Positions 42,534-63,420 of a DNA stretch of 64,000 bases are shown here, piece by piece. The notes below the pieces were generated by a model that was not told the DNA's origin, did no database searches, and was given only the letters and a program-made list of their open reading frames with translations. A program made the position numbers and the translations under genes. Source of the DNA: a virus; the UHGV virus genome UHGV-0222911; one strand, given 5' to 3'. The number at the start of each line of letters is the position of its first letter. Position 1 is the stretch's first letter.

Positions 42534-43019
42534 ATGAATTACATGGAGATTAGACCATTTGACACGGCTAATGGTGAAGGGGTTCGTGTAAGCCTCTTCG
42601 TAGCTGGTTGTAAGCATCACTGTGAAGGCTGCTTTAACAGGGAGTCTTGGAAGTTTAATGCTGGTAAGGTATTTACTTATGCAAACCTCTACGGAATCAT
42701 CCAGCTAATGGGTGATAATGCTGTCAGTGGTTTGTCAATACTTGGTGGAGAACCTCTGGATGATAGAAATATTCAAGAGGTTACAGACATATGCAAACGT
42801 GTTAAAACTGTTTACCCAGAGAAGACTATATGGCTCTGGACAGGTTTTCAGTTACACGAAAAAATTCACCTAGATGTAATGAAATATGTTGACGTGGTGA
42901 TTGATGGTAAGTATGATTCATCTAAACCAACAGTTAAACCATATCGTGGTTCTGATAACCAAAACCTCTGGAGAAAAGAGTATGGGTGGCAAGGCGATTG
43001 TCAATGGAGAGCCGAGTAA
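42534..43019 (+). CDS. nrdG: anaerobic ribonucleotide reductase activating protein (radical SAM)
   Basis: 161 aa; radical SAM cluster motif CKHHCEGC. Confidence 0.85.
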   Translation: MNYMEIRPFDTANGEGVRVSLFVAGCKHHCEGCFNRESWKFNAGKVFTYANLYGIIQLMGDNAVSGLSILGGEPLDDRNIQEVTDICKRVKTVYPEKTIWLWTGFQLHEKIHLDVMKYVDVVIDGKYDSSKPTVKPYRGSDNQNLWRKEYGWQGDCQWRAE

Positions 43020-43143
43020 GTCTCGTCGTAAAGCAGGTTATCGGTAAAGGGCACTTTACAATGTTCTACAGAACAAACTTAACCGTTTGTGTCACTGAAA
43101 AAGAACTTAAAACATTTTGTGAAAAGATTGAGAGAGATATGAA

Positions 43144-43401
43144 ATGGGACTCTGGAATAGTTTTAAATCAAAAGTAAAAGCAGCACTAGCTTCATTAGGT
43201 ATGCTCACTGGTGTTGATGTGACTCACCTTATGCAGAACTTCAAGATGGATGAGAAGCTGGCTAATGAGATTATGAAAAGTATCTATGTAGGCCGTGGTA
43301 AAGGTGGTAAGAAACAAGCCCACCGTCCGTCTGGTGCAGCAGCTATTAAACGAGCAGCTAAGAAAGCTCGTAACCGTAAACGTAATAAGAAGGCTAAATA
43401 A
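43144..43401 (+). CDS. small basic protein
   Basis: 85 aa; Lys/Arg-rich C-terminus (AAKKARNRKRNKKAK). Confidence 0.35.
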   Translation: MGLWNSFKSKVKAALASLGMLTGVDVTHLMQNFKMDEKLANEIMKSIYVGRGKGGKKQAHRPSGAAAIKRAAKKARNRKRNKKAK

Positions 43402-44562: not shown

Positions 44563-44574
44563 GAGAGAAAAACT

Positions 44575-45456
44575 ATGAAAACATCTATCCGTGTTACAGT
44601 TCATTCACCAACTAAAGGAACTCATGAAGAAGAGTTTAACATCATCCAATTTCCTTCTGGTGAGATTGGTGGACACTTTTCGCCAGAGTTTGTTGATTTT
44701 ACTGCTTATGCAGCATCATCCATCAACAATGTGATTATGATTGTAAAAGGTTATGATAAGGACACATTGTTTGCTGTGGCACTTGCTAAAGAAGCAATTG
44801 ATGATTTAATTCCTCACGATTATGCTTTAAAGACTGTCATCTTTTACTACTTACCAAATGCACGATATGACCGTCACATGTTTAAAGGCGACGCAGCAGC
44901 TTTAAAGGTTTTTGCTAAACAGATTAATGCAATGGGGTTTGGCGCAGTCTGTGCAGTTGACCCTCACAGCTATGTACCAGATAACCTGTTTAACTGCTTC
45001 CAGAGTATTCCTCAAAAGGAAATTGCAGTCCACTATGCAAATGACCCACTGATTGATTACTTAGTAGCCCCAGATGCAGGTGCTGCTAAGAAGATTGCAG
45101 AGACTGCTAAAGAGGTGGATAAACCATACATCACAATGTCTAAAGTGCGTAACCTTAAGACTGGTGAAATTACTGGTATGCGAATCCTTGATGATGTTGA
45201 TTTGACAGATAAAACCGTTATGATTCTGGATGATATCTGTGATGGTGGTCGAACCTTCATAGAAGCAGCGAAACATCTTCGTGAAGCAGGTGCAAAACGT
45301 GTGGAACTTTATGTAACACATGGTATCTTCTCTAAAGATGTTGAAAACCTTCTTGACAATGGTATCGACCATATTTACACTACAAACTCTTTAGGCGAAG
45401 CTAAAGACCGTGGCTTAACACATTACAGTCAAGTTACTGTAGCAAACCTTGATTGA
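44575..45456 (+). CDS. ribose-phosphate pyrophosphokinase-like enzyme (Prs family; possibly ADP-ribose pyrophosphokinase of an NAD+ reconstitution pathway)
   Basis: 293 aa; PRPP-synthetase-type motif VMILDDICDGGRTF; directly upstream of NAMPT-like gene. Confidence 0.7.
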   Translation: MKTSIRVTVHSPTKGTHEEEFNIIQFPSGEIGGHFSPEFVDFTAYAASSINNVIMIVKGYDKDTLFAVALAKEAIDDLIPHDYALKTVIFYYLPNARYDRHMFKGDAAALKVFAKQINAMGFGAVCAVDPHSYVPDNLFNCFQSIPQKEIAVHYANDPLIDYLVAPDAGAAKKIAETAKEVDKPYITMSKVRNLKTGEITGMRILDDVDLTDKTVMILDDICDGGRTFIEAAKHLREAGAKRVELYVTHGIFSKDVENLLDNGIDHIYTTNSLGEAKDRGLTHYSQVTVANLD

Positions 45457-47336: not shown

Positions 47337-47672
47337 ATGAAAATCAAAGAGATGAACATCAACATCGTCTTAGAAGAACGTTGGGAGAACATTAAGAAGC
47401 CTGAAAATGGTCATAAGTTCCTTAACAAAATTTTAGTAGCAGCTAAAGAAGAACTGACTGGTAAGATTGCAGCAGCAATCACAATAAAGGTCTGTGTAAA
47501 AGGTCTTCCAGACAATCACCAATTTGCACTTGACGAGTTTAAAGAAAGCTTCTACAATCCAAACAAACAGATGCTTGAAAGTAACTTTGCAGTGTCTACA
47601 AGTATCGTCCATGACAGAAGCTTTATCCTTTACAAGAATATGAGAGGTGAGTCATGCAAGCATATTGGATAG
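47337..47672 (+). CDS. hypothetical protein
   Basis: 111 aa ORF. Confidence 0.4.
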   Translation: MKIKEMNINIVLEERWENIKKPENGHKFLNKILVAAKEELTGKIAAAITIKVCVKGLPDNHQFALDEFKESFYNPNKQMLESNFAVSTSIVHDRSFILYKNMRGESCKHIG

Positions 47673-47858: not shown

Positions 47859-50225
47859 ATGCGCATGGTAAATGACCACGCAGAAGTGATTAAGAGTTCA
47901 ACTTCTTTAGAGACGTCTCAAGCACAGATTACAATGACACCTGAGATGTTCAGCCTTTTGAGTTCTGGTGTATATACCTTTAAAGAAAGGGCAGTGATTC
48001 GTGAACTGTCATGTAATGCAGTAGATGCTCAGAAAGAAGCTGGAAAAGAAAACATCCCGTTCCATGTGCATTTACCTACTCGATTTGAGCCTTACTTTGA
48101 AGTCCGTGACTTTGGAACTGGTTTAACCCATGACAAAGTAATGAGTTTGTATCTGAACTACGGTGCTTCTACGAAGAATGACTCTAATGACTACATTGGT
48201 GCAATGGGTATCGGCTCAAAGTCACCGTTTGCAATTGCTCAGTCATTCACAGTATCTAGCTATGTTGATGGTGTTGTTAATAAGTACTCTGTTTACCTTG
48301 AGAATGGTATCCCTCAAGTAACTAAGCTTACTACTAACCAAACAAATGAACCTAATGGTTTAGCGGTACGTGTGGCAGTTGCTGACCACCGTATCTCAAA
48401 GTTCTTTGAAGAAGCTGGGAATGTGTACTCATACTTCACTGTAAAACCAGAAAGTAATATTGAGTACGACGATGTATTAGCAGATATGAACGTCATTGCC
48501 CGTGAAGAAGGTGTTTATGATGCCATGATTCATAAGCAAAGCTGGCGTTCTAGTGGTAACAGGACAGAGTTTAATGTGGTGATGGGTAATATTGCCTATC
48601 CAGTGAACATGGAAGCATTACTTGGTGATGATTTCTTCAAAGTCTTGCCAGAGTTTTTCCGTAGGAGCGTAGACCTTGTAAACATCTACATGCCTATTGG
48701 TTCAGTTGCTATAGCAGCTTCTCGTGAAGCATTGCAGATGAATGACACGACAAAAAATGTTATCATTGAGGCTACTAAAAAGATAACTGAAGCCATTACA
48801 AAGGATGTTATCAAGAAAGTTAATAGCCAACCTACACTCATGGATGCTGCACAGGCTTATGCAGAGTTACGTTTGAACTCACGAGAGATGTTTAATGCTG
48901 TGTGTCCAAAGCTAGAGTGGGGAGGCGTTAAGCTTGATTCTCTGGAAGAAGAATTGTTAAACATTCGTCGTGGAATTATCTACGCAGAAGACGGCTCAGT
49001 CATTTATGAACGTGACGGTAAAGGCAATATTAAGGTTGATAGGAACGGGAACAATATCCCTAAAGTAGATTATCTTTATGACCCAGTTGCTTATGTCAAG
49101 TTCAACTCTTTAGAGAGTAAGATTCGTGCAACAGCACTTTCCTACACTCAAGAGGCAAGCATGTTCAATATCTTTGGTGCAATGCGTAAAAGCCAAATTG
49201 AACAGTTTTTGTTCGTGATTAATGACCGTCGCAATAAAAACGGTACTGAGAAGACTGTAGGACGCAATCAAATTTTGCGTGGTGCATGTCGAGACTACGC
49301 CAGTGAGTCAAATCTGTTTCACAGATACAATGGTATTGTCTTTGTATTCTCTACAGAGAAAGAGCTAGATGACTTAATCAATCTGCACAAACTTGATAAA
49401 AGCTTGTTAAAGATTGTGAAGATGTCTGATAAGGAACATCACTATCAGCGTAAAGAAGCTGTAAGAGGTGTTGTAAAACTCTGGAAAGCTGTTCCAGCAG
49501 AAGGTGTAGCTTCCTATAAAGAGGTTTCAGAGGACTTTGATACAATTGAAGAACCTCAGCTTTACATTAAGGCAGTTGGTGACACAGTTGACGGTGAATG
49601 TTTTTGCTCATCTCCAGAAGATGTAGCCAAGTCAGTTGCTAATGTTATAGGGAAGACAGTCTATGTTTTCCGAAAAGCAAATTGGAAAAAGATACCAGAA
49701 GACTGGATTGAAGTAGACGAGAAACTCTTGAACGACAGCTTAACTGACGTTCACTGGATTAACCATAACAGATATATGACACGTATCTATATGAATGGTG
49801 TCCTCGACCTTACAAGCAGTTGGATTATTGCCAGAAACTTTACGTTCAATAACAGGAAGATTTCTCGTGGCTATTGCTATTCACGAGACACAAACAAAAC
49901 TATCTTCTTAGAAGGCAATGAAGATGCTGTTGAGGCAATGTTTGGTAAAATCCAATACGTTGCTGCACCGTTTGCATACACTTACACTATTAGTAGATTG
50001 CAAACTTTGAAAGAATGCCTTGACAATGATACAAAACTGTACAAGAAAATTAAGAAAGCTGGTGACCGCATGGTCATTAAGGTGACAAACTACCTTTCAA
50101 AAAGAAAACAAGAAAACTTCTTGCTTTCACACTTAGATTGGAATAAAGTGTCACCCATCGAAGTGAGTAAGTTCTTAGGCTTTGATGTGAAGTGTGTTCC
50201 AGAAGGGACTACAATTTACGATTAA
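47859..50225 (+). CDS. rIIA-like protein
   Basis: 788 aa; N-terminal GHKL/HATPase-like motifs (NAVDA, EVRDFGTGL, GAMGIGSKS) as in T4 rIIA. Confidence 0.6.
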   Translation: MRMVNDHAEVIKSSTSLETSQAQITMTPEMFSLLSSGVYTFKERAVIRELSCNAVDAQKEAGKENIPFHVHLPTRFEPYFEVRDFGTGLTHDKVMSLYLNYGASTKNDSNDYIGAMGIGSKSPFAIAQSFTVSSYVDGVVNKYSVYLENGIPQVTKLTTNQTNEPNGLAVRVAVADHRISKFFEEAGNVYSYFTVKPESNIEYDDVLADMNVIAREEGVYDAMIHKQSWRSSGNRTEFNVVMGNIAYPVNMEALLGDDFFKVLPEFFRRSVDLVNIYMPIGSVAIAASREALQMNDTTKNVIIEATKKITEAITKDVIKKVNSQPTLMDAAQAYAELRLNSREMFNAVCPKLEWGGVKLDSLEEELLNIRRGIIYAEDGSVIYERDGKGNIKVDRNGNNIPKVDYLYDPVAYVKFNSLESKIRATALSYTQEASMFNIFGAMRKSQIEQFLFVINDRRNKNGTEKTVGRNQILRGACRDYASESNLFHRYNGIVFVFSTEKELDDLINLHKLDKSLLKIVKMSDKEHHYQRKEAVRGVVKLWKAVPAEGVASYKEVSEDFDTIEEPQLYIKAVGDTVDGECFCSSPEDVAKSVANVIGKTVYVFRKANWKKIPEDWIEVDEKLLNDSLTDVHWINHNRYMTRIYMNGVLDLTSSWIIARNFTFNNRKISRGYCYSRDTNKTIFLEGNEDAVEAMFGKIQYVAAPFAYTYTISRLQTLKECLDNDTKLYKKIKKAGDRMVIKVTNYLSKRKQENFLLSHLDWNKVSPIEVSKFLGFDVKCVPEGTTIYD

Positions 50226-50230
50226 AGTGT

Positions 50231-50260
50231 TTGACAAGGGGCTTCAAAGCCCCTTAGAAT
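50231..50260 (+). promoter_or_regulatory. sigma70-like promoter with hairpin in the spacer
   Basis: TTGACA - 18 nt (contains GGGGCTT caa AGCCCC) - TAGAAT. Confidence 0.45.
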
Positions 50261-50304
50261 AGCCTTACAAAATGATTTATTAACTAACAAGAGAGAGTAA
50301 TAAG

Positions 50305-51413
50305 ATGACTACTAAAACTAAAGCACAGATTGACGCAGAAATTTACGAACTGGTTAAAGAAGGTAAGCTGACTAAAACAGCTATTGCACAGAAGTTCAAT
50401 ACTTCAACCCGTTCAGTTGGTCGTGCTGTAGAGCGTCATGAAGCAACCTTAAAAGGTAAGAAGAAGGCGACTTCTACACCAGCTAAGAAGACCCTAAAAC
50501 AAGTTGCTAAGTCAGTTAAAAAGAAAGCTGACAAACCAGTTGAAAAGGCCGTTAAAGACGCTGTACAGAAAGCTCCAGTAAATAAACTGCATGAAGCTAT
50601 GCAGAAAGATGACAAGATTGAGTACATGATTACTGGTGACTCTGTAATTATGACTTACGGTTCAGAATCTGAAATTGTTGAGTCTACTCATCCGAACTAT
50701 CAAGAGATTGTAGTTCATGTTGTGAAAGGTGAGTTCAAGAAAGCATTTGAACTGATGAACATTCGTAAGTCTATCGAAAACTTCACTCAGGGTGCTATCA
50801 CAATCAAAGGTGACAAGCTCTTCTACGGTGCTGTTGAGATGCGTTCTACTCTGGTTGACCGTATTCTTCACATGATGAAAACTGGTGATAAAGGTTTTGA
50901 ACGACTTGTAATGTTCTTCGAAAAACTGATGGAAAACCCATCTAAAGATTCTGTAGAACAACTTTGGGGATTTGTATCTCACCTTGATGTTGAAATTGAT
51001 GAAGAAGGTTACATCATTGGTTGGAAGAAAGTCTCTACTCGTGAAGGCAAGCTGGTTGACTCTCACACCTACAAAGTGCCTAATGATTTGGGTAACATTG
51101 TAGAGATGCCACGTTGGATGGTTGATAACAACCGTAACGTAACTTGCTCTCAAGGTCTTCATGTTGGCGCTTGGATTATGTTCGTTGCTTCTCAGGTGAT
51201 ACCATCCTGAAGGTTCGTGTCCATCCACGAGATGTTGTATCCGTACCAACTGATTACAACGATATGAAGATGCGTTCCTCTCGTTATGAAGTTGCAGCAA
51301 TCGTTGATAATCAACGTAAAGTGCTGAAAGCATGGGATGGTAAGACTGAAGCTTTGCATGTCATCGTTGGCACTGCTGGTGAACTTATCTCTCAACGTAA
51401 ACGTGAAATCTAA
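50305..51413 (+). CDS. rIIB-like protein candidate, split by an apparent -1 frameshift near 51180-51210
   Basis: ORFs 50305..51210 and 51144..51413 overlap by 67 nt in different frames and read as one protein; Lys-rich segment near N-terminus; rIIB identity only from position after rIIA-like gene. Confidence 0.3.
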
Positions 51414-51429
51414 TAAGTAATTTCTTAAA

Positions 51430-51456
51430 AGGCTGCTTCGGCGGCCTTTTTTATTT
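51430..51456 (+). terminator. UUCG-tetraloop terminator
   Basis: GGCTGC TTCG GCGGCC followed by TTTTTTATTT. Confidence 0.55.
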
Positions 51457-55997: not shown

Positions 55998-56026
55998 TTG
56001 ACTCTTTGGATATGGTTATCTAATAT
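55998..56026 (+). promoter_or_regulatory. sigma70-like early promoter (module A1)
   Basis: TTGACT - 17 nt - TAATAT, then hairpin GGGGAGGGAATGACCTTCCCC at 56037-56057 and conserved leader to ATG 56093. Confidence 0.6.
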
Positions 56027-56092
56027 TTGCATCAACGGGGAGGGAATGACCTTCCCCACTAAACAACTAACCTTAAACTAGGAGATTCAAAA

Positions 56093-56473
56093 ATGGCTTA
56101 TCGTGCACCGAAATTCATCAACAAAGACAACTTTCGCAACGTACTGGAGAAGGCACTTGATGAAAAATTTAACGGTAAAATGATTGTTGTTCACGCATTC
56201 AATTTTAAGTATGATATCAACGGGAATAAAATCAACCATTACACGGCTACAATGCTAGATGGTACTCTTTCAAGTGAAAAATCCATTCTCCATGCACTGG
56301 CAGGACGTGGAAAGGTTTTAGTAAGATGTGATAAGCGACGTTATCAAGGTGGCGCATATGGTTATGATGATGCTGTTTACCATCTTGAAAATATGGGCTA
56401 TTCAGTGGAGAAAGCTGGAGCGCCTCAAATAATCGGTAGTGATGGTTATGTGACAATCTTCAAAATTAAATAA
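56093..56473 (+). CDS. early-region small protein (unknown)
   Basis: 126 aa; ATG 8 nt after GGAGA SD in conserved leader. Confidence 0.5.
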   Translation: MAYRAPKFINKDNFRNVLEKALDEKFNGKMIVVHAFNFKYDINGNKINHYTATMLDGTLSSEKSILHALAGRGKVLVRCDKRRYQGGAYGYDDAVYHLENMGYSVEKAGAPQIIGSDGYVTIFKIK

Positions 56474-56559
56474 AGTACTTTACAGGGGGCTTATAGTTCG
56501 ATAAAGTAAGCCCCAGATAAAGAGCTTTACCACTAAATCCTAAATTGGAGAACTTAAAA
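56471..56559 (+). promoter_or_regulatory. conserved intergenic module B1 (hairpin + shared leader)
   Basis: TAAAGTACTTTACA + hairpin GGGGCTTA/TAAGCCCC (56486-56514) + AGATAAAGAGCTTTACCACTAAATCCTAAATTGGAGA..ATG. Confidence 0.55.
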
Positions 56560-56850
56560 ATGGCTATTATCAAAAACGTTGTAATTCCTGCAAAAACTCG
56601 TGACGACGCTCGTATCATGGCGAAAAAGTTAGGCGGAAAAGTGGTTGACAACGGAAAACAATCCACTGTAAGATGGGGCGTGAAGACTGATAAGCAGTTG
56701 AAGTTAAAAAATTCACCAATAAACCTTTTTACATGTGTAAACACTATCGGGAAGGCAAATGTATACACGAAAAAGGCATATATTAGACGCGTAGCCTTAA
56801 CATCCCCCATTCGTACAATGAGAGGCCATGCAAAGCTGAAAATTAACTGA
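56560..56850 (+). CDS. early-region small protein (unknown)
   Basis: 96 aa from ATG placed by conserved leader (longest ORF starts 56545). Confidence 0.5.
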   Translation: MAIIKNVVIPAKTRDDARIMAKKLGGKVVDNGKQSTVRWGVKTDKQLKLKNSPINLFTCVNTIGKANVYTKKAYIRRVALTSPIRTMRGHAKLKIN

Positions 56851-56938
56851 TAAAGTACTTTACAGGGGGCTTAAAAGTTGGTATCTTAAGCCCCAGATAA
56901 AGAGCTTTACCACTAAATCCTAAACTGGAGATTCAAGA
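56851..56938 (+). promoter_or_regulatory. conserved intergenic module B2
   Basis: Same module; hairpin GGGGCTTAA/TTAAGCCCC at 56866-56894 with compensatory changes relative to B1. Confidence 0.55.
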
Positions 56939-57151
56939 ATGAACATTAATCAAAAACTGAAAACCGCCTCACAAGTCCTATTCACAGATGATGACTATTT
57001 CAATAAAGACCTTACAGGTTTGAAATCTCTCAAAGAGATTAAAGAGCGCATGAAAATTTATGGAAAACCTCGGTTAGTTGGTGTATTCTCTAACTGTTAT
57101 GTTTATCAGCTTAATGGTCATTACAATTTTACGATTACTATTTTATCCTAA
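56939..57151 (+). CDS. early-region small protein (unknown)
   Basis: 70 aa. Confidence 0.45.
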   Translation: MNINQKLKTASQVLFTDDDYFNKDLTGLKSLKEIKERMKIYGKPRLVGVFSNCYVYQLNGHYNFTITILS

Positions 57152-57166
57152 ACTGGAGATTCAAAA

Positions 57167-57463
57167 ATGAAATTATCAAATAAAGTCCGTGAAAACCTTA
57201 GCAAGTTACTCAACAAAATTGATTTCATTGAAACATCAAGAAATAGCCATGATGTTATGGAATGGTTACACGGCAAAATAAAAGGCCGTCGTGTAGTGAT
57301 TTGTCTATGGAATAGTTGCAGGGAGTATAAAAAACCTGTATTGCAAATTAATGTTTATGATGATACTTATAAAAGCCCTGTTAAGTCTGAAAGTGATTTA
57401 CTAGATTCTTATGAGATAACTGTAAATGGCAAAGTATCACGTAAAGAGGAAGCACTATGTTAA
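57167..57463 (+). CDS. early-region small protein (unknown)
   Basis: 98 aa; preceded by short form of conserved leader CCTAAACTGGAGATTCAAAAATG. Confidence 0.45.
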   Translation: MKLSNKVRENLSKLLNKIDFIETSRNSHDVMEWLHGKIKGRRVVICLWNSCREYKKPVLQINVYDDTYKSPVKSESDLLDSYEITVNGKVSRKEEALC

Positions 57464-57789
57464 TGATGGGTATCACTGCAATCATAGCCATTATGGCACT
57501 TTACAAGGCTTACAGCGCCTATAATCTGGCAAGTAAGGCAATCACGCAACAGGTTAATAATAACCTTGTAATGAGCTTTCTGGAGCGTTTAAGTGATGAA
57601 CAATTGAAACGGTTAGAAATGAGCTTCAGATTTCAATCGAGAACTTATCAAATCAGCGACATTTTCAAAGATGATTTTCAGCTAGTCGATGATTATAATT
57701 CTCTGATAAATGCTTTAAATATCAGTGACTTAAAAGACTATTACTCTGTAATTGTTCAAGAATTGAGCAAACGAAAACAAAACTGTTGA
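57457..57789 (+). CDS. early-region small membrane protein
   Basis: 110 aa; N-terminal TM (MGITAIIAIMALY); ATG overlaps previous stop. Confidence 0.4.
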   Translation: MLMMGITAIIAIMALYKAYSAYNLASKAITQQVNNNLVMSFLERLSDEQLKRLEMSFRFQSRTYQISDIFKDDFQLVDDYNSLINALNISDLKDYYSVIVQELSKRKQNC

Positions 57790-57814
57790 CACTGATTTTT
57801 AGATAGATTAAATT
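57786..57814 (+). promoter_or_regulatory. sigma70-like early promoter (module A2)
   Basis: TTGACA - 17 nt - TAAATT; hairpin 57825-57845; leader to ATG 57880. Confidence 0.6.
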
Positions 57815-57879
57815 ACACATCAACGGGGAGGGAATGAACTTCCCCACTAAATAAAGTCCTTAAACTAGGAGATTCGAAA

Positions 57880-58152
57880 ATGTATACTACTAACAACGGT
57901 CGTACTCTAAATGTAACTTTGCGCCACTATGTTGACGGTGTAATGCACTTTGAGGATTTACAGGCTGAACAACACATCTTAGATTGGCAAGTAGCAGGAC
58001 TCCAAAAAACTGCTACAGGATACGGGAAAAAGATTCCAACTAGCTGGAAAGTATACTACGAAGGACGTTTGCGCAGAATTTATCAGGATGTATGTAGCAA
58101 TAGCGCAACAAGTTACATCATGGTAAAAGGTAAAAAATTGCACTTAGTATAA
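57880..58152 (+). CDS. early-region small protein (unknown)
   Basis: 90 aa. Confidence 0.5.
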   Translation: MYTTNNGRTLNVTLRHYVDGVMHFEDLQAEQHILDWQVAGLQKTATGYGKKIPTSWKVYYEGRLRRIYQDVCSNSATSYIMVKGKKLHLV

Positions 58153-58237
58153 AGTACTTTACAAGGGGCTTATAGTTCGATAAAGTAAGCCCCAGATAAA
58201 GAGCTTTACCACTAAATCCTAAATTGGAGATTCAAAA
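58150..58237 (+). promoter_or_regulatory. conserved intergenic module B3
   Basis: Near-identical to B1; hairpin 58165-58193. Confidence 0.55.
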
Positions 58238-58642
58238 ATGGCTATTAATAATCGTGAGTTGTCAATCTTAAAAGCACGTTTGACCGTTAACCGGATTAAT
58301 GTTATCACGTCATCAGCACCAGATGAAACACTGCAAAACATTATTGGGAAGATTCAAAGTGTTATCTTAGATGTTGAAAGCGTAAAAAACTCATTGGCTG
58401 ACGTTGCAGCAGGTATCACGCTAGACGGTGCACAATATGAAATGGCTGACATGTTAGGCAAATCAAAGGTAATGAATAAAGAGCTTGATTTAAAAATGTT
58501 TCGTTTTGCCGTGAAAGTGTGGCTATCTGTCGAGTATGACGCAAATTTTGCAATTGCTGACTTTTTTGCAACATGGTTGCAACGTAATTTAACAAATCAT
58601 GATTTTCGTGATATCTGTGACGCAATTTACGCAGAACTCTAA
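58238..58642 (+). CDS. early-region small protein (unknown)
   Basis: 134 aa. Confidence 0.5.
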   Translation: MAINNRELSILKARLTVNRINVITSSAPDETLQNIIGKIQSVILDVESVKNSLADVAAGITLDGAQYEMADMLGKSKVMNKELDLKMFRFAVKVWLSVEYDANFAIADFFATWLQRNLTNHDFRDICDAIYAEL

Positions 58643-58649
58643 AAAACTG

Positions 58650-58678
58650 TTGACACTGATTTTTAGATAGATTAAATT
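58650..58678 (+). promoter_or_regulatory. sigma70-like early promoter (module A3)
   Basis: Identical to A2: TTGACA - 17 nt - TAAATT; hairpin 58689-58709. Confidence 0.6.
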
Positions 58679-58740
58679 ACTCATCAACGGGGAGGGAATG
58701 AACTTCCCCACTAAGTAAAATCCTAAACTGGAGATTCAAA

Positions 58741-58941
58741 ATGGCTATTATTAACGGCTTAACCATTGAAACAACACACATCAAAGACATCAAAGTTGGG
58801 GATGTAGTCCTTTCCCACGGCGTAGAAAAAACTGTCACTGCAAAGGATATCAAAGAGGATTCTTTCATGGGTAGAACTCTCTTTGGTGATTCTTATTGCT
58901 TAGGTTATCTTGCAGTTTTAAAAGTTGTCAAAATTAACTGA
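58741..58941 (+). CDS. early-region small protein (unknown)
   Basis: 66 aa. Confidence 0.45.
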   Translation: MAIINGLTIETTHIKDIKVGDVVLSHGVEKTVTAKDIKEDSFMGRTLFGDSYCLGYLAVLKVVKIN

Positions 58942-59029
58942 TAAAGTACTTTACAGGGGGCTTAAAAGTTGGTATCTTAAGCCCCAGATAAAGAACTTTA
59001 CTACTCAATCCTAAACTGGAGATTCAAAA
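58942..59029 (+). promoter_or_regulatory. conserved intergenic module B4
   Basis: Same as B2; hairpin 58957-58985. Confidence 0.55.
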
Positions 59030-59572
59030 ATGAAATGCTTTCACGGTACTACTCAAGAAAACTTTATCAACCTGATTAATAACGGTGATAAGCCATCAGG
59101 TGCATGGAATTGTTCGGATATGGACGGCAATTTTTACGTTTATCCAGAAAATAAAATCTATGGCGACGATGAGGAAGAGATAACATCTGAAGGCATTCAG
59201 CAAGCTTTAGGTAATGCCACTATTACCGCAGCGTTTCAGATGAAAACTCAAAATATTGTTATCTTGGAACTTGATATTCCAGAGGATGAGTTGAATGATG
59301 ATTATTCTTGTGATAATATGTCGAGTGTGGCAAGTTTTACAGAGTATTTTGATATAAGCTGGATTAAAAAGGTTTACATCACTGAATTTAATGCTATGTT
59401 TTCACCTTTTTGTCTTCCTTCACTGGATAACCCAAATTTGAACTATCTTGATGAGTCTCTGGAACTTCTCGCTAAAAGTGTTCAACAATCAGACAGTGTT
59501 CAGGTTTTTTGTGACATCATGGATACACTAACAGGAAACATCATAGAAAGTGATTTGAAGAGCTTTTTATAA
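59030..59572 (+). CDS. strongly acidic early protein (unknown)
   Basis: 180 aa, Asp/Glu-rich with few basic residues. Confidence 0.5.
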   Translation: MKCFHGTTQENFINLINNGDKPSGAWNCSDMDGNFYVYPENKIYGDDEEEITSEGIQQALGNATITAAFQMKTQNIVILELDIPEDELNDDYSCDNMSSVASFTEYFDISWIKKVYITEFNAMFSPFCLPSLDNPNLNYLDESLELLAKSVQQSDSVQVFCDIMDTLTGNIIESDLKSFL

Positions 59573-59604
59573 AAACCTATGCAATCACCTTATAAACACT
59601 GATT

Positions 59605-59625
59605 AGCCCCTCACAGGGGCTTTTA
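59605..59625 (+). terminator. hairpin + T-run
   Basis: AGCCCC tcaca GGGGCT followed by TTT. Confidence 0.45.
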
Positions 59626-59638
59626 GGAGGCTTTAATC

Positions 59639-59872
59639 ATGCTTACAACCGTTTATCTCATCCTTTCTATTTGTAATGGTCATTCATGCGATTTTAAAGG
59701 GCTTGAGGAGTTTACAGGGAGTAAAGAAAATGCCATTCAGGTCTGTCAGATAGCAAGACAAGACTATCCCGCCAGTGATGATATACAATGTTACTTTAAG
59801 ACAGAAGATAAAGACGGCATCTATTTTGACAGCGTAGACGGTCAATATGAAATCATCATTGAAAAAGACTAG
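59639..59872 (+). CDS. early-region small protein (unknown)
   Basis: 77 aa; SD GGAGG before ATG. Confidence 0.45.
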   Translation: MLTTVYLILSICNGHSCDFKGLEEFTGSKENAIQVCQIARQDYPASDDIQCYFKTEDKDGIYFDSVDGQYEIIIEKD

Positions 59873-59898
59873 ACAAGCTTGATAAAAGTCTGTAAATT
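59870..59898 (+). promoter_or_regulatory. sigma70-like early promoter (module A4)
   Basis: TAGACA - 17 nt - TAAATT; hairpin 59909-59929. Confidence 0.5.
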
Positions 59899-59963
59899 AC
59901 TAATCAACGGGGAGGGAATGGCCTTCCCCACTAAATAAAGTCCTTAAACTAGGAGATTCTAAA

Positions 59964-60305
59964 ATGGCTTATGTAACTGTAATTACCGATAAAGAGAATT
60001 CATCTTGGTCAACTCAGGTTAGTGATAAGATGTCACCTATGCAGTGCCTAAAATACTTTGAGCAGTGGAACAAAGGCGAAGATGTAAGCCCCTTTCAGGT
60101 AATGCAAATCATCCATACAGATAACGAAGGGAATAAAACGACACTGAATAGCGAGTACTACGCAAGCCGTTTTGAAACGAGAAGTAAAACAATGAAGATT
60201 TTACGTGAATCCGGCTATTCTCATATTGCCGCGCTAATCTGGGATGACCTGCTAAAAAGTCAGCGTATCAGCTATGTAAAACCTGAAAAAATATTTATCA
60301 GTTAA
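59964..60305 (+). CDS. early-region small protein (unknown)
   Basis: 113 aa. Confidence 0.5.
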   Translation: MAYVTVITDKENSSWSTQVSDKMSPMQCLKYFEQWNKGEDVSPFQVMQIIHTDNEGNKTTLNSEYYASRFETRSKTMKILRESGYSHIAALIWDDLLKSQRISYVKPEKIFIS

Positions 60306-60434
60306 TCAATAACTTACAAAAAACTTTTAAAAAGATGTTGACAATCCCTCTTGACATTGGTAACTTTGTTCGAGGGGGTTTATCTAAAAGGGATTAACTT
60401 AAAAGATTCTTTATAGATAAACTTAAAAAATTGC

Positions 60435-60463
60435 TTGCAATCAGATATCAAAACAAGTAAATT
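60435..60463 (+). promoter_or_regulatory. sigma70-like early promoter (module A5)
   Basis: TTGCAA - 17 nt - TAAATT; variant hairpin GGGAGG caataa CCTCCC at 60475-60492; two extra TTGACA at ~60345-60366. Confidence 0.5.
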
Positions 60464-60527
60464 ACTCATCAACGGGGAGGCAATAACCTCCCTACTAAGT
60501 AAAATCCTTAAACTAGGAGATTCAAAA

Positions 60528-61058
60528 ATGAACAAGTTCAAAGCTATCAACTATATTCGTTCAAATAATGTAATGTCTAAGCCTGTTAAAGATACCTATG
60601 AATTTCGTTGTAATGGGGTACACTTTGCAACCATTACCAAATCAGAAAACGGAGCTTATTACGTTCATCGTCGTAATGTTGCAACCGTTGTAGTCTCTCA
60701 CTTTATGCAAGCTGTTGCGGAACTTCTCCCGCTGTTTTTAGGTCTTTACTTAGATGAGTGTAAAAACGTTCACAGCCACGTTAAAAACCTTTTAAACAGT
60801 TATAAAATGGCTTATGAACGTTCTATTCATAATTTGAACAAGTTCTATAAAGCCCCTGAAAATACTGTGTCAATAGCTTATGACGTAAGCGGTGAAATGG
60901 TCAATCTCTCCAATGTAGAACAAATTAACCTTTATGATTTACGTCCTAACGGTTACGCTAAAACTCTCGGTGAAGGTTTAACGTTTAATATCAAGAACTT
61001 AGAAAAAACTTTAAAAGATATTGAAAAAGATATTGACGAGACAACCAAAAATCTGTAA
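60528..61058 (+). CDS. early-region protein (unknown)
   Basis: 176 aa from ATG placed by conserved leader (longest ORF starts 60435 within promoter). Confidence 0.5.
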   Translation: MNKFKAINYIRSNNVMSKPVKDTYEFRCNGVHFATITKSENGAYYVHRRNVATVVVSHFMQAVAELLPLFLGLYLDECKNVHSHVKNLLNSYKMAYERSIHNLNKFYKAPENTVSIAYDVSGEMVNLSNVEQINLYDLRPNGYAKTLGEGLTFNIKNLEKTLKDIEKDIDETTKNL

Positions 61059-61061
61059 ATT
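61033..61061 (+). promoter_or_regulatory. sigma70-like early promoter (module A6)
   Basis: TTGACG - 17 nt - TAAATT, inside 3' end of preceding CDS; hairpin 61072-61092. Confidence 0.5.
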
Positions 61062-61123
61062 GTCAATCAACGGGGAGGGAATGGCCTTCCCCACTAAGTA
61101 AAGTCCTAAACTGGAGATTCAAA

Positions 61124-61387
61124 ATGGAACACGTCGAACTGACCACACTTTTACAAATTGCAACCGACAAAGAGGATGTAGCACTATTCCACCGTATCGA
61201 AAGTGATTTGTTCAATGGTGAAATCATCAAAGAGTCTTACGAGGTTGTCGGATTCAAAGACGGTAAAGCATTCGGATTCTTTGACCTCGACAAAGGTAAC
61301 GCTATTACAAAGTACGATGTATTATCTTGTGAGATTCTGGCAAAATACAACGAAAAAAGACTTGCAACATACGCCAACATGCAGTAA
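61124..61387 (+). CDS. early-region small protein (unknown)
   Basis: 87 aa. Confidence 0.5.
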   Translation: MEHVELTTLLQIATDKEDVALFHRIESDLFNGEIIKESYEVVGFKDGKAFGFFDLDKGNAITKYDVLSCEILAKYNEKRLATYANMQ

Positions 61388-61391
61388 ATTA
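61362..61391 (+). promoter_or_regulatory. sigma70-like early promoter (module A7)
   Basis: TTGCAA - 18 nt - TAAATT; variant hairpin GGGAGG taatga CCTCCC at 61401-61418. Confidence 0.5.
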
Positions 61392-61452
61392 CTAATCAAC
61401 GGGAGGTAATGACCTCCCACTAAATAAAAACCTTAAACTAGGAGACTCTAAA

Positions 61453-61701
61453 ATGGCTACTATCCGCGCAACTGTTAATGCTTATGGCTGCTACACTCTG
61501 GATGTTAAATTTGATATTGGTGGAACTGATGAATGCTTTTCATTAGTGAAGACAGTTATCAAGCAAGTTATCCCAGATTATAACCCTACTGATGACTTCT
61601 GGAAAGACGCTGTAAAAGAGGCATTAAACGACGAGCATCACTATCATTACTGGGGTGATTTGATTGTCTCCCTGTACTACAGCAAACAAGGGTACAACTA
61701 A
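61453..61701 (+). CDS. early-region small protein (unknown)
   Basis: 82 aa; followed by two hairpins and a long T-run. Confidence 0.5.
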   Translation: MATIRATVNAYGCYTLDVKFDIGGTDECFSLVKTVIKQVIPDYNPTDDFWKDAVKEALNDEHHYHYWGDLIVSLYYSKQGYN

Positions 61702-61735
61702 TCGACGCAACGGGGCTAAATAGCCCCAGATACCT

Positions 61736-61769
61736 GAAAAGCTCCTTCTCATAGGGGCTTTTTTTTTTA
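61736..61769 (+). terminator. rho-independent terminator closing the early cluster
   Basis: AAAAGCTCC ttctcata GGGGCTTTT with 10-nt T-run. Confidence 0.6.
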
Positions 61770-61779
61770 CGTCTATGCA

Positions 61780-63420
61780 ATAGCCCCTATACAAGCCTTT
61801 CCCTTTCCTTTCCAGAATCTATCCCGTACCTTAAAAGCAATAACTCTATAGCTTACTCTATAGCCCCTTATCAAATCAACTTAAATAAAAGCCAATAACC
61901 CCAGAAAGGGGATGGCCTACTAATTGGTATTGTTACCAATCCCCTAAACGCTCTATAAAGCTCTATAACAGCCTTATCAACCTAACTTAAGGGATTGCAT
62001 TAACCCACTCTAAAAAGCCCTTTATAAAGCTTCCTATAGCCTTAAAAGAATCTTATAAGGGTGTAAGCTTTATCATCTCGTTAGTTATCTTGTGAATAAC
62101 TCAATAGCCCTTGATAGTCTCTAAAAAGTATGTTATAGGGGCTGTTAAGTTACTTTGAAGTTACGTAAAAGAGGCTATAAAGTTACGTAAACGCTAGCCC
62201 CCTTAACATTTTCTTAACAATTTCTTAACAATCCCTACATAGTTATGCTTTTAAGGCACTTGTTAGAGACTTGTTAGCCCCTTGTTAAATCTCTGTTAAG
62301 ACCACGTAAAAGCCTTGTAAGAGTCTTTGGCATAGCCTTTAAAGCTCCTATAAAGCCCTATAAAGAGGTGTCTGTATAGTTGGGGTGTAGTTACTAGGAA
62401 GAGACTTAAAAGAGCTTATAAGGGGCTATAGAGAGCTTTTAAGAGGTATGTTTAGAGAGTCACTAAAAGGGAAGGGAACAATAAGAAAAGAGTAGTGACC
62501 ATGTTAATAGCTTGTTAAAAAGATTAAACACTTGTTAGGAACTTGTTAATTATCTAATTGGTATTGTTACCAATCCCTAACAAAATAACTCTTTAAAATT
62601 AACTTGTTAGCTCTTGTTAGTCATCTGTTAAGATTCTGTAAAGTCTATGTATCAACTGTTAAGAAACTGTTACATCCTTGTTAGTTCTGTTAAGAATCTG
62701 TTAAGACCTTTGAAGAGTTGTTAAGAGGATGTAGTAGCTGTTAAGAGATTGTTAAGGATATTTTAAAATTTTGCAAAGTACTTGTAAGGGAGCTGTTAAG
62801 GGCTACCAAGCAGATATACATCTTCTACAGATATTTTTCAGTTCCTTCAAAGACCCTAAAAAATGACTTGACAGTCCTATTTTATAAAAATTTTAAAATT
62901 CTGAATAATTACCTAGACAGTCTTTTAAAAATACAGGCATAAACAGGCTTATAAGATACCTTGTTAGTACCGTGTTAGACCTTGTGAGATAAGGTCTGTA
63001 AAGATATTCCTGTTAAGTTTGTTAAAACAGTCTATATAGAGGCTTAGTATTTCCTAGTGAACACCTATAGAGAGTAACATAGCTAACCTAATGGGTTACT
63101 GTTAAGTAACACAGGTAACCTAGAGATTAAGAGGTGTATAGGAGCTTCTAAGAGGGTGTAGAGAGATGGTTAAGGTGATTGTATAGGTTGTTAAGAAGGC
63201 TTGTTAGAAGAGTGTTTAGAAGGGCTATACAGAGGGGCTATTAAGACCACTAGATAGATACTAAGATACTATATAGTACTATATAACTATATAGAGAGTA
63301 AGATTAAGAAGGTTGTTAAGAAGGATAGATATTTTATTCACATATGATGGTGACCCAGAGGTTGGGACAACCGATAAAATTTTATAAAAATTAAAAAGCC
63401 CCCAATTAAGGAGGCTCTTA
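61780..63420. repeat. ORF-free repeat-dense region (YTGTTAR and CTATAAAG short-repeat families, palindromes)
   Basis: No ORF of 60 aa or more on either strand; about 30 copies of CTGTTAAG/TTGTTAG-like words; CTATAAAG/CTATAG words at 61.84-62.45 kb; palindrome TTGGTATTGTTACCAA at ~61924 and ~62557. Confidence 0.7.
63393..63416 (-). terminator. terminator for minus-strand gene 63428..63985
   Basis: Minus strand AGCCTCC ttaatt GGGGGCT followed by TTTTT. Confidence 0.45.

What the first reader, a model, noticed from the sequence alone, without database searches (positions are those of the whole stretch)
50305..51413. Gene after rIIA-like is split by a frameshift with no slippery site
ORFs 50305..51210 and 51144..51413 overlap by 67 nt in different frames and together read as one ~370-aa protein. 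No X XXY YYZ heptamer is present in the overlap, so this is more likely a sequencing indel or a genuine inactivating mutation than programmed recoding. The N-terminal part has a Lys/Ala-rich segment (KKATSTPAKKTLKQVAKSVKKKADKPVEKAVKDAVQKAP) after a short HTH-like stretch.
Basis: seen in the sequence. Interest (0 to 1): 0.4.

Follow-up and report, generated by a model that had tools for sequence, protein, structure and literature searches.

The report
Frameshift-broken rIIB gene in Felix-O1-like phage
The "split gene" is the well-known phage gene rIIB, broken by the loss of a single G; the deletion is real because it recurs in several independent metagenome assemblies, but it is an ordinary inactivating mutation in a conditionally dispensable gene.

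Summary
ORFs 50305..51210 and 51144..51413 overlap by 67 nt, and the second lies in the -1 frame. The window is a Felixounavirus (Felix-O1-like E. coli/Salmonella myovirus) and the gene is rIIB, directly after rIIA.

Every relative examined has one uninterrupted 1110-nt, 369-aa rIIB. The window lacks one G of a GGG run (TGG GAT became TGG AT, at 51173-51174). Re-inserting one G gives a protein identical to the intact allele.

The deletion is a real variant. The identical broken allele sits on 8 contigs, from Logan and two ENA assembly styles, covering at least two BioSamples that differ by one further SNP. Three contigs from a sister sample match the window over 8-18 kb except that they carry GGG.

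There is no slippery heptamer at the junction, and the frameshift is not conserved, so this is not programmed recoding. The predicted product is RIIB residues 1-290 plus 11 wrong residues. It lacks the family's most conserved block (VHPRDVVSxPxDYNDxKMR), so it is very probably null.

Published knock-downs show rII is dispensable on Rex-free hosts, which fits a viable mutant lineage. Interest is low.

The parts
47859..50225 (+). rIIA, intact, 788 aa. It is the partner gene immediately upstream.
   Evidence: ORF. PHROG 612 'RIIA lysis inhibitor', E 5e-189. Annotated as rIIA in relatives.
50231..50260 (+). Sigma-70-like promoter match (TTGACA-18-TAGAAT, 11 of 12) in the rIIA-rIIB spacer. The spacer contains an inverted repeat.
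   Evidence: This is a consensus match only, and the number of such matches in the region is not above shuffles.
50305..51413 (+). The whole rIIB locus, a frameshifted pseudogene. It is 1109 nt here against 1110 nt (369 aa) in relatives.
50305..51174 (+). Codons 1-290 of RIIB in the original frame, ending with Trp290 (TGG, 51172-51174).
   Evidence: tblastn break at residue 290|291. Sequence.
51173..51174 (+). The lesion: GG where all relatives have GGG. This is a 1-nt deletion at the Trp290-Asp291 codon boundary (TGG GAT to TGG AT).
   Evidence: Alignments. blastn gap list. Isogenic intact loci differ only by this G.
51175..51210 (+). Out-of-frame tail of 11 codons (IMFVASQVIPS) followed by a premature TGA stop.
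51174..51413 (+). Codons 291-369 of RIIB plus the stop, now in the -1 frame. This part holds the family's most conserved block, KVRVHPRDVVSVPTDYNDMKMR.
   Evidence: tblastn second piece at 100% identity. T4 alignment. PHROG 609 positions 999-1049.
51427..51450 (+). Intrinsic terminator after rIIB: a 10-pair stem followed by a T run.
   Evidence: The same site is annotated as a Rho-independent terminator in phage wV8.

Best explanation
This is the rIIB gene of a Felixounavirus, inactivated by a genuine single-base deletion in a GGG run at the Trp290/Asp291 codons. Slippage in a short homopolymer is the likely origin. Translation from the normal start yields residues 1-290 plus 11 unrelated residues, then stops. 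The last 79 residues, which include the block most conserved between Felix-O1-like and T4 RIIB, are not made. The allele is therefore most likely null (inferred). rII is dispensable on hosts without a Rex-type exclusion system, so the mutant lineage stays viable and persisted long enough to be sampled more than once. It should be excluded by RexAB-carrying (lambda-lysogenic) hosts, and by analogy with T4 r mutants it may lyse faster (inferred, not shown).
For: Identity of the gene:
- 276 phage records match, mostly Escherichia, Salmonella and Shigella Felixounavirus, and are annotated rIIB.
- Relatives carry a single 1110-nt CDS.
- PHROG 609 RIIB matches with E 2.4e-89 once one G is restored.

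Exact lesion:
- The window has GG where relatives have GGG.
- Inserting one G gives a protein identical to the intact allele of locus L020.

Reality of the deletion:
- The exact 301-aa product is on 8 contigs read, from Logan and ENA.
- The deleted allele is in ERZ28583644 (SAMN07509848, an 87,967-bp scaffold), ERZ28583467 (SAMN07509879), ERZ27273115 (a k119 contig) and Logan SRR5935990.
- Two of these also carry the SNP 44849 A>G, so they are not copies of one assembly.
- Loci L020, L023 and L024 (SAMN07521859, ERZ27273728, SRR5946822) are identical to the window over 17.9, 12.3 and 8.0 kb apart from carrying GGG.

Assembly quality:
- Across the window, rIIB is the only conserved gene cleanly split by a frameshift among 95 reference ORFs.
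- The other isolated 1-nt indels against phage Pr103Blw fall between annotated genes, apart from one in a 59-aa hypothetical gene.

Loss of the conserved part:
- The T4 alignment places the lesion just before VHPRDVVS.P.DYND.KMR.

Dispensability:
- Knock-down of rIIA or rIIB in T4, MM02, EdH4, SUSP1 and N4 does not harm infection of Rex-free E. coli, but lowers plating efficiency on RexAB hosts (PMC11879866, read).
Against: - No reads were inspected, so the allele frequency within each sample is unknown.
- Some of the 8 contigs are probably re-assemblies of the same runs. Independent support is firm only for two BioSample accessions plus the distinguishing SNP.
- That the truncated protein is null is inferred from conservation and from classical T4 genetics. 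It has not been tested in this phage group.
- The deleted allele was not found in IMG/VR, JGI metagenomes or GTDB genomes, so it is confined to one strain or project.
Confidence: 0.87

Rival explanations
1. Sequencing or assembly artefact: the phage really has GGG, and one G was lost when the consensus was built.
For: The lesion lies in a homopolymer, although only 3 nt long. No read-level data could be examined. Several of the contigs may derive from the same sequencing runs.
Against: The same deletion appears in three assembly styles: Logan contigs, 'scaffold' assemblies and k119 MEGAHIT-style contigs. It is found in at least two BioSamples, one of which carries an extra SNP. The same pipelines return GGG for the sister sample (L020, L023, L024). 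No other conserved gene in the 64-kb window is frameshifted.
Confidence: 0.05
2. Split but still functional: the N-terminal 301-aa product and a separately initiated C-terminal peptide (for example from TTG 51171 or ATG 51264) together supply RIIB activity.
For: Gene callers in the public assemblies call an 80-aa ORF from TTG 51171 that hits PF26926. The lineage persisted across samples.
Against: No Shine-Dalgarno-like sequence lies at a suitable distance upstream of any in-frame start in the -1 frame (read directly from the sequence). No relative has such an arrangement. Persistence is equally explained by rII being dispensable on Rex-free hosts.
Confidence: 0.05
3. Programmed -1 ribosomal frameshift or transcriptional slippage that restores full-length RIIB.
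For: The required shift is -1, the commonest programmed direction. A weak 6-pair hairpin lies about 40 nt downstream at 51214-51231.
Against: There is no X XXY YYZ heptamer and no homopolymer of 4 or more in or near the junction. The shift is absent from every relative, including an otherwise identical strain that carries GGG. Programmed recoding sites are conserved. This one is a private 1-nt difference.
Confidence: 0.02

Closest known systems
Phage T4 rIIB frameshift (phase-shift) r mutants, the material of Crick, Barnett, Brenner and Watts-Tobin 1961 (from my own knowledge)
   Same: It is the same gene family: 41% identity to T4 RIIB over residues 127-347 by tblastn, with the alignment. It holds the same genomic position after rIIA. 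The lesion is of the same type, a single-base deletion that changes frame and ends at a nearby out-of-frame stop.
   Different: The classical suppressible T4 frameshifts lie in the dispensable N-terminal B1 segment. This one lies near the C-terminus, just before the most conserved block. It arose in a Felixounavirus seen in metagenomes, not in a laboratory T4 stock. Its phenotype is untested.
Intact Felixounavirus rIIB (Felix O1, wV8, Pr103Blw, E9 and others)
   Same: 99.3% nucleotide identity to Pr103Blw across the locus. Same promoter region, terminator and neighbours.
   Different: One G is missing, so the reading frame is broken. The relatives encode 369 aa, or 379 aa in vB_SflM_004, which has an in-frame 30-nt insertion.
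rII knock-downs in diverse phages (T4, MM02, EdH4, SUSP1, N4) by CRISPRi-ART, PMC11879866
   Same: This is loss of RIIB function in a non-T4 phage. It predicts that the mutant is viable on Rex-free hosts and restricted by lambda RexAB.
   Different: Those were engineered knock-downs in laboratory hosts. Here it is a spontaneous allele in an uncultured population, and no Felixounavirus proper was among the phages named in the passages I read.

Membership tests
RIIB (PHROG 609 / Pfam PF26926 Phage_T4_rIIB) | Significant match to the family profile | tested here: met
   With one G restored: PHROG 609, E 2.4e-89. The fragments alone score E 4.6e-69 and 5.2e-13 and occupy contiguous profile positions. 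PF26926 is recorded for both called ORFs in the public assemblies. My local Pfam scan did not report PF26926.
RIIB (PHROG 609 / Pfam PF26926 Phage_T4_rIIB) | Located immediately downstream of rIIA on the same strand | tested here: met
   rIIA lies at 47859..50225 (PHROG 612, E 5e-189) and rIIB starts at 50305. Relatives show the same order.
RIIB (PHROG 609 / Pfam PF26926 Phage_T4_rIIB) | Conserved C-terminal block (VHPRDVVSxPxDYNDxKMR) encoded in frame with the N-terminal part | tested here: not met
   The block is encoded at about 51225-51280, but in the -1 frame relative to the start codon. The locus is therefore an rIIB pseudogene, not an intact member.
RIIB (PHROG 609 / Pfam PF26926 Phage_T4_rIIB) | Function: protection from RexAB-type exclusion, or lysis-inhibition phenotype | not testable with these tools
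   This needs plating on hosts with and without rexAB. Literature support exists only for other phages.
Programmed -1 ribosomal frameshift site | Slippery heptamer X XXY YYZ at the frame junction | tested here: not met
   None in 51120..51215. The nearest in-frame heptamer is at 51087, upstream of residues that are still read in frame 0 by homology.
Programmed -1 ribosomal frameshift site | The two-frame arrangement is conserved in relatives | tested here: not met
   All relatives are in one frame, including the isogenic loci L020, L023 and L024. In IMG/VR, 15 contigs carry the in-frame 26-mer and none carries the deleted 25-mer.
Programmed -1 ribosomal frameshift site | Downstream stimulatory structure at 5-9 nt | tested here: inconclusive
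   There is only a 6-pair terminator-scan hairpin at 51214-51231, about 40 nt downstream. No dedicated folding was done, because the first two criteria already fail.
Sequencing/assembly artefact | Not reproducible across independent samples or assemblers | tested here: not met
   The deletion is reproduced in at least two BioSamples and three assembly styles, while the same pipelines give GGG for a sister sample.
Sequencing/assembly artefact | Accompanied by other homopolymer indels that break genes | tested here: not met
   rIIB is the only conserved gene cleanly split by a frameshift. Other isolated 1-nt indels against Pr103Blw lie between annotated genes, apart from one in a 59-aa hypothetical gene.

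The most novel reading that the evidence does not exclude
The GG allele is a natural 'r-type' mutant that rose to assembly-consensus frequency within a host-associated Felixounavirus population. It co-exists in the same project with its isogenic wild type. That would be a case of in-situ selection for, or at least tolerance of, loss of the anti-Rex/lysis-timing gene rIIB outside the laboratory. The source is probably a human gut; this rests only on the sample naming and my recollection of the accession range.
Probability: 0.25. Interest if true: 0.4.

Novelty: already known. Interest (0 to 1): 0.15.

Why it matters
For annotation, the locus should be labelled as one frameshifted rIIB pseudogene, not as two hypothetical genes or as a recoding site. 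Biologically the result is a small one. It gives a natural, apparently isogenic pair of rIIB-intact and rIIB-broken Felix-O1-like phages in public metagenomes. That pair could be used to ask whether rII loss is neutral or selected in the wild. It does not open a new mechanism.

Tried and rejected
- **Pfam-A (local copy):** it gave only a sub-threshold HTH hit and no RIIB family for either fragment, and nothing for rIIA. PHROGs was used instead.
- **NCBIfam:** no model matched RIIB.
- **PDB sequence search:** no solved RIIB relative; the best E-value was 0.54, which is chance level.
- **Deleted-allele 25-mer scans:** nothing was found in IMG/VR, JGI metagenomes or GTDB genomes.
- **Paper search for the run and sample accessions:** nothing was found, so sample metadata (subject, time point, habitat) could not be established.
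- **Programmed frameshifting:** considered and rejected, because there is no slippery site, the arrangement is not conserved and an isogenic in-frame allele exists.
- **Searches deliberately not run:** the large protein-homology searches and structure prediction. The intact protein is not encoded in the window, so it is not an allowed input for the restricted tools. The verdict also does not depend on the RIIB fold.

Full report
**1. Observation**

The ORF list and the sequence show ORF 50305..51210 (301 aa, ATG start) and ORF 51144..51413 (89 aa, TTG start) on the + strand. They overlap by 67 nt, and the second lies in the -1 frame relative to the first. The N-terminal 'HTH-like' stretch has only a sub-threshold Pfam hit (HTH_Tnp_ISL3, residues 10-45, E 6e-4). 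No X XXY YYZ heptamer and no homopolymer of 4 or more occurs in 51120-51215.

**2. What the gene is**

A megablast of 50250-51450 against GenBank phages finds 276 records, and 257 of them cover at least 80% of the query. They are almost all Escherichia, Salmonella, Shigella or Citrobacter phages of the Felix-O1 group (Ounavirinae, Felixounavirus), and the locus is annotated rIIB.

- The best hits are Pr103Blw (99.3%) and E9 (99.2%).
- In Pr103Blw, E9 and wV8 the locus is one 1110-nt CDS of 369 aa. It sits directly after rIIA and is followed by a Rho-independent terminator.
- The window has the same terminator at 51427-51450 and a sigma-70-like promoter match at 50231-50260.
- PHROGs confirms both genes. 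The upstream 788-aa ORF is RIIA (PHROG 612, E 5e-189).
- The two fragments match contiguous parts of the RIIB profile PHROG 609: positions 755-998 and 999-1049.

**3. The lesion**

All of the top 40 matches span 1202 nt for the 1201-nt query, apart from one with an in-frame 30-nt insertion. Alignments and a whole-window blastn gap list put the difference at a single base. Relatives read ...GCT TGG GAT TAT... and the window reads ...GCT TGG AT T AT..., so a GGG run has become GG at 51173-51174.

Inserting one G yields a 369-aa protein identical to the intact allele found in locus L020. tblastn of that protein breaks at residue 290|291 in every locus carrying the deletion. It runs uninterrupted in more than 20 relatives, including 15 IMG/VR contigs.

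The predicted product of the window allele is residues 1-290 plus IMFVASQVIPS, followed by a stop.

**4. Real mutation or artefact?**

Exact-sequence look-ups show the 301-aa product (and the 80-aa ORF that gene callers place downstream) on 8 contigs from Logan and ENA. The longest is about 88.9 kb.

Loci carrying the deletion:

| Assembly | Sample | Difference from window |
|---|---|---|
| ERZ28583644 (87,967-bp scaffold) | SAMN07509848 | 0 differences over 22 kb |
| Logan SRR5935990 | not stated | 0 differences over 14.7 kb |
| ERZ28583467 | SAMN07509879 | SNP 44849 A>G |
| ERZ27273115 (k119 contig) | not stated | SNP 44849 A>G |

The SNP 44849 A>G shows that the last two are not the same assembly or population snapshot as the first two.

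Looking up the window's exact RIIA protein also retrieves three contigs that match the window except for carrying GGG:

| Assembly | Sample | Length identical to window |
|---|---|---|
| ERZ28586758 | SAMN07521859 | 17.9 kb |
| ERZ27273728 | not stated | 12.3 kb |
| Logan SRR5946822 | not stated | 8.0 kb |

So the same pipelines give GG for some samples and GGG for a sister sample of what is otherwise the same strain.

Across the 64-kb window, a screen of 95 reference ORFs from Pr103Blw finds rIIB to be the only conserved gene cleanly split by a frameshift. The other isolated 1-nt indels lie between annotated genes, apart from one in a 59-aa hypothetical gene. A sequencing artefact is therefore unlikely (about 5%). 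I could not inspect reads, and several of the 8 contigs are probably re-assemblies of the same runs.

**5. Why it is not recoding**

The required shift is -1, but the junction (CUU GGA U) has no slippery heptamer and no long homopolymer. The two-frame arrangement is private to this allele. The isogenic strain and every relative are in frame. In IMG/VR, 15 contigs carry the in-frame 26-mer and none carries the deleted 25-mer. JGI metagenomes and GTDB genomes also lack the deleted 25-mer.

Independent translation of the C-terminal piece is not supported either. No Shine-Dalgarno-like sequence precedes the candidate starts (read directly).

**6. Consequence (inferred)**

Aligned with T4 RIIB, the lesion lies just before the block best conserved between the two phage groups: KV+VHPRDVVS+P.DYND.KMR. 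tblastn identity to T4 is 41% over residues 127-347. Losing this block very probably abolishes function. In classical T4 genetics, chain-terminating and frameshift mutations outside the dispensable N-terminal B1 segment of rIIB give the r phenotype (my own knowledge).

The CRISPRi-ART study (PMC11879866) reports on knock-down of rIIA or rIIB in T4, MM02, EdH4, SUSP1 and N4. Knock-down does not impair infection of Rex-free E. coli, but it lowers plating efficiency on hosts expressing lambda RexAB. The BASEL study shows the same for a T4 rIIAB fusion mutant (PMC8594841).

A broken rIIB is thus expected to be tolerated on most hosts. That fits a lineage that was sampled at least twice and picked up, or segregates with, a further SNP.

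**7. Comparison with what is known, and novelty**

This is an rIIB frameshift mutant, historically the most famous class of phage mutation, in a well-sequenced phage genus. It is a pseudogene of a known family and not a new system.

The only mildly interesting aspect is that the wild-type and mutant alleles of an otherwise identical phage are both present in public metagenomes of one project. The sample names begin 'HMPC19-1'. I recall the run accessions as belonging to the iHMP gut metagenomes, but I could not verify this (one search found nothing). This pair could serve as a natural example of an r-type mutant outside the laboratory.

**8. Verdict**

- Confidence in the best explanation is 0.87.
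- Interest is low (0.15).
- The kind of feature is already known.

Noticed in passing
window 44849 (within ORF 44563..45456, the PRPP-synthetase-like gene): Among contigs that carry the rIIB deletion, two (ERZ28583467 and ERZ27273115) have G instead of A here. That is a Tyr-to-Cys change, so the deleted lineage is itself polymorphic.
   Followed up: partly
window ~42900-43175: Relative to Pr103Blw the window lacks about 155 nt (L004 42154-42309) inside a hypothetical gene of 125 aa. This leaves a short 57-aa ORF before the next gene. The neighbouring strains in L019/L021 also differ here, so it looks like ordinary mosaic variation rather than an error.
   Followed up: partly
window ~56000-62800: This is a region of many small genes separated by a recurring ~70-110-nt intergenic element, ending in ...CCTTAAACTAGGAGATTC.... 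The element matches many places in the corresponding region of Pr103Blw. It probably represents repeated early promoter and ribosome-binding cassettes.
   Followed up: no
L020 9571-9670 (ENA ERZ28586758 scaffold_195), corresponding to window 47529-47583: The public scaffold has a run of 100 N flanked by a 55-nt duplication of window sequence. It looks like a scaffolding artefact in that assembly, not a biological difference.
   Followed up: partly
window 47859..50225 (RIIA), residues ~30-140: The N-terminus of RIIA gives weak, far sub-threshold matches to HSP90-family and sacsin ATP-binding (GHKL-type) models. This is consistent with an ATPase-like fold in RIIA.
   Followed up: no
cluster members P0005, P0006: Intact 369-aa RIIB proteins of this phage group are deposited as 'hypothetical protein [Escherichia coli]' on contigs of about 87 kb. 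Whole Felixounavirus genomes are therefore present in some E. coli isolate assemblies, either as contamination or as a carrier state.
   Followed up: no
L041 (Shigella phage vB_SflM_004, MK295205.1) rIIB 356-1495: This relative's rIIB is 1140 nt (379 aa) because of an in-frame 30-nt insertion. The gene therefore tolerates some length variation.
   Followed up: partly
window 50231-50260: A near-consensus sigma-70 promoter match (TTGACA-18-TAGAAT) has a spacer that is itself an inverted repeat (AGGGGCTT CAA AGCCCCT). One short element may therefore act both as the rIIA terminator hairpin and as the rIIB promoter.
   Followed up: no
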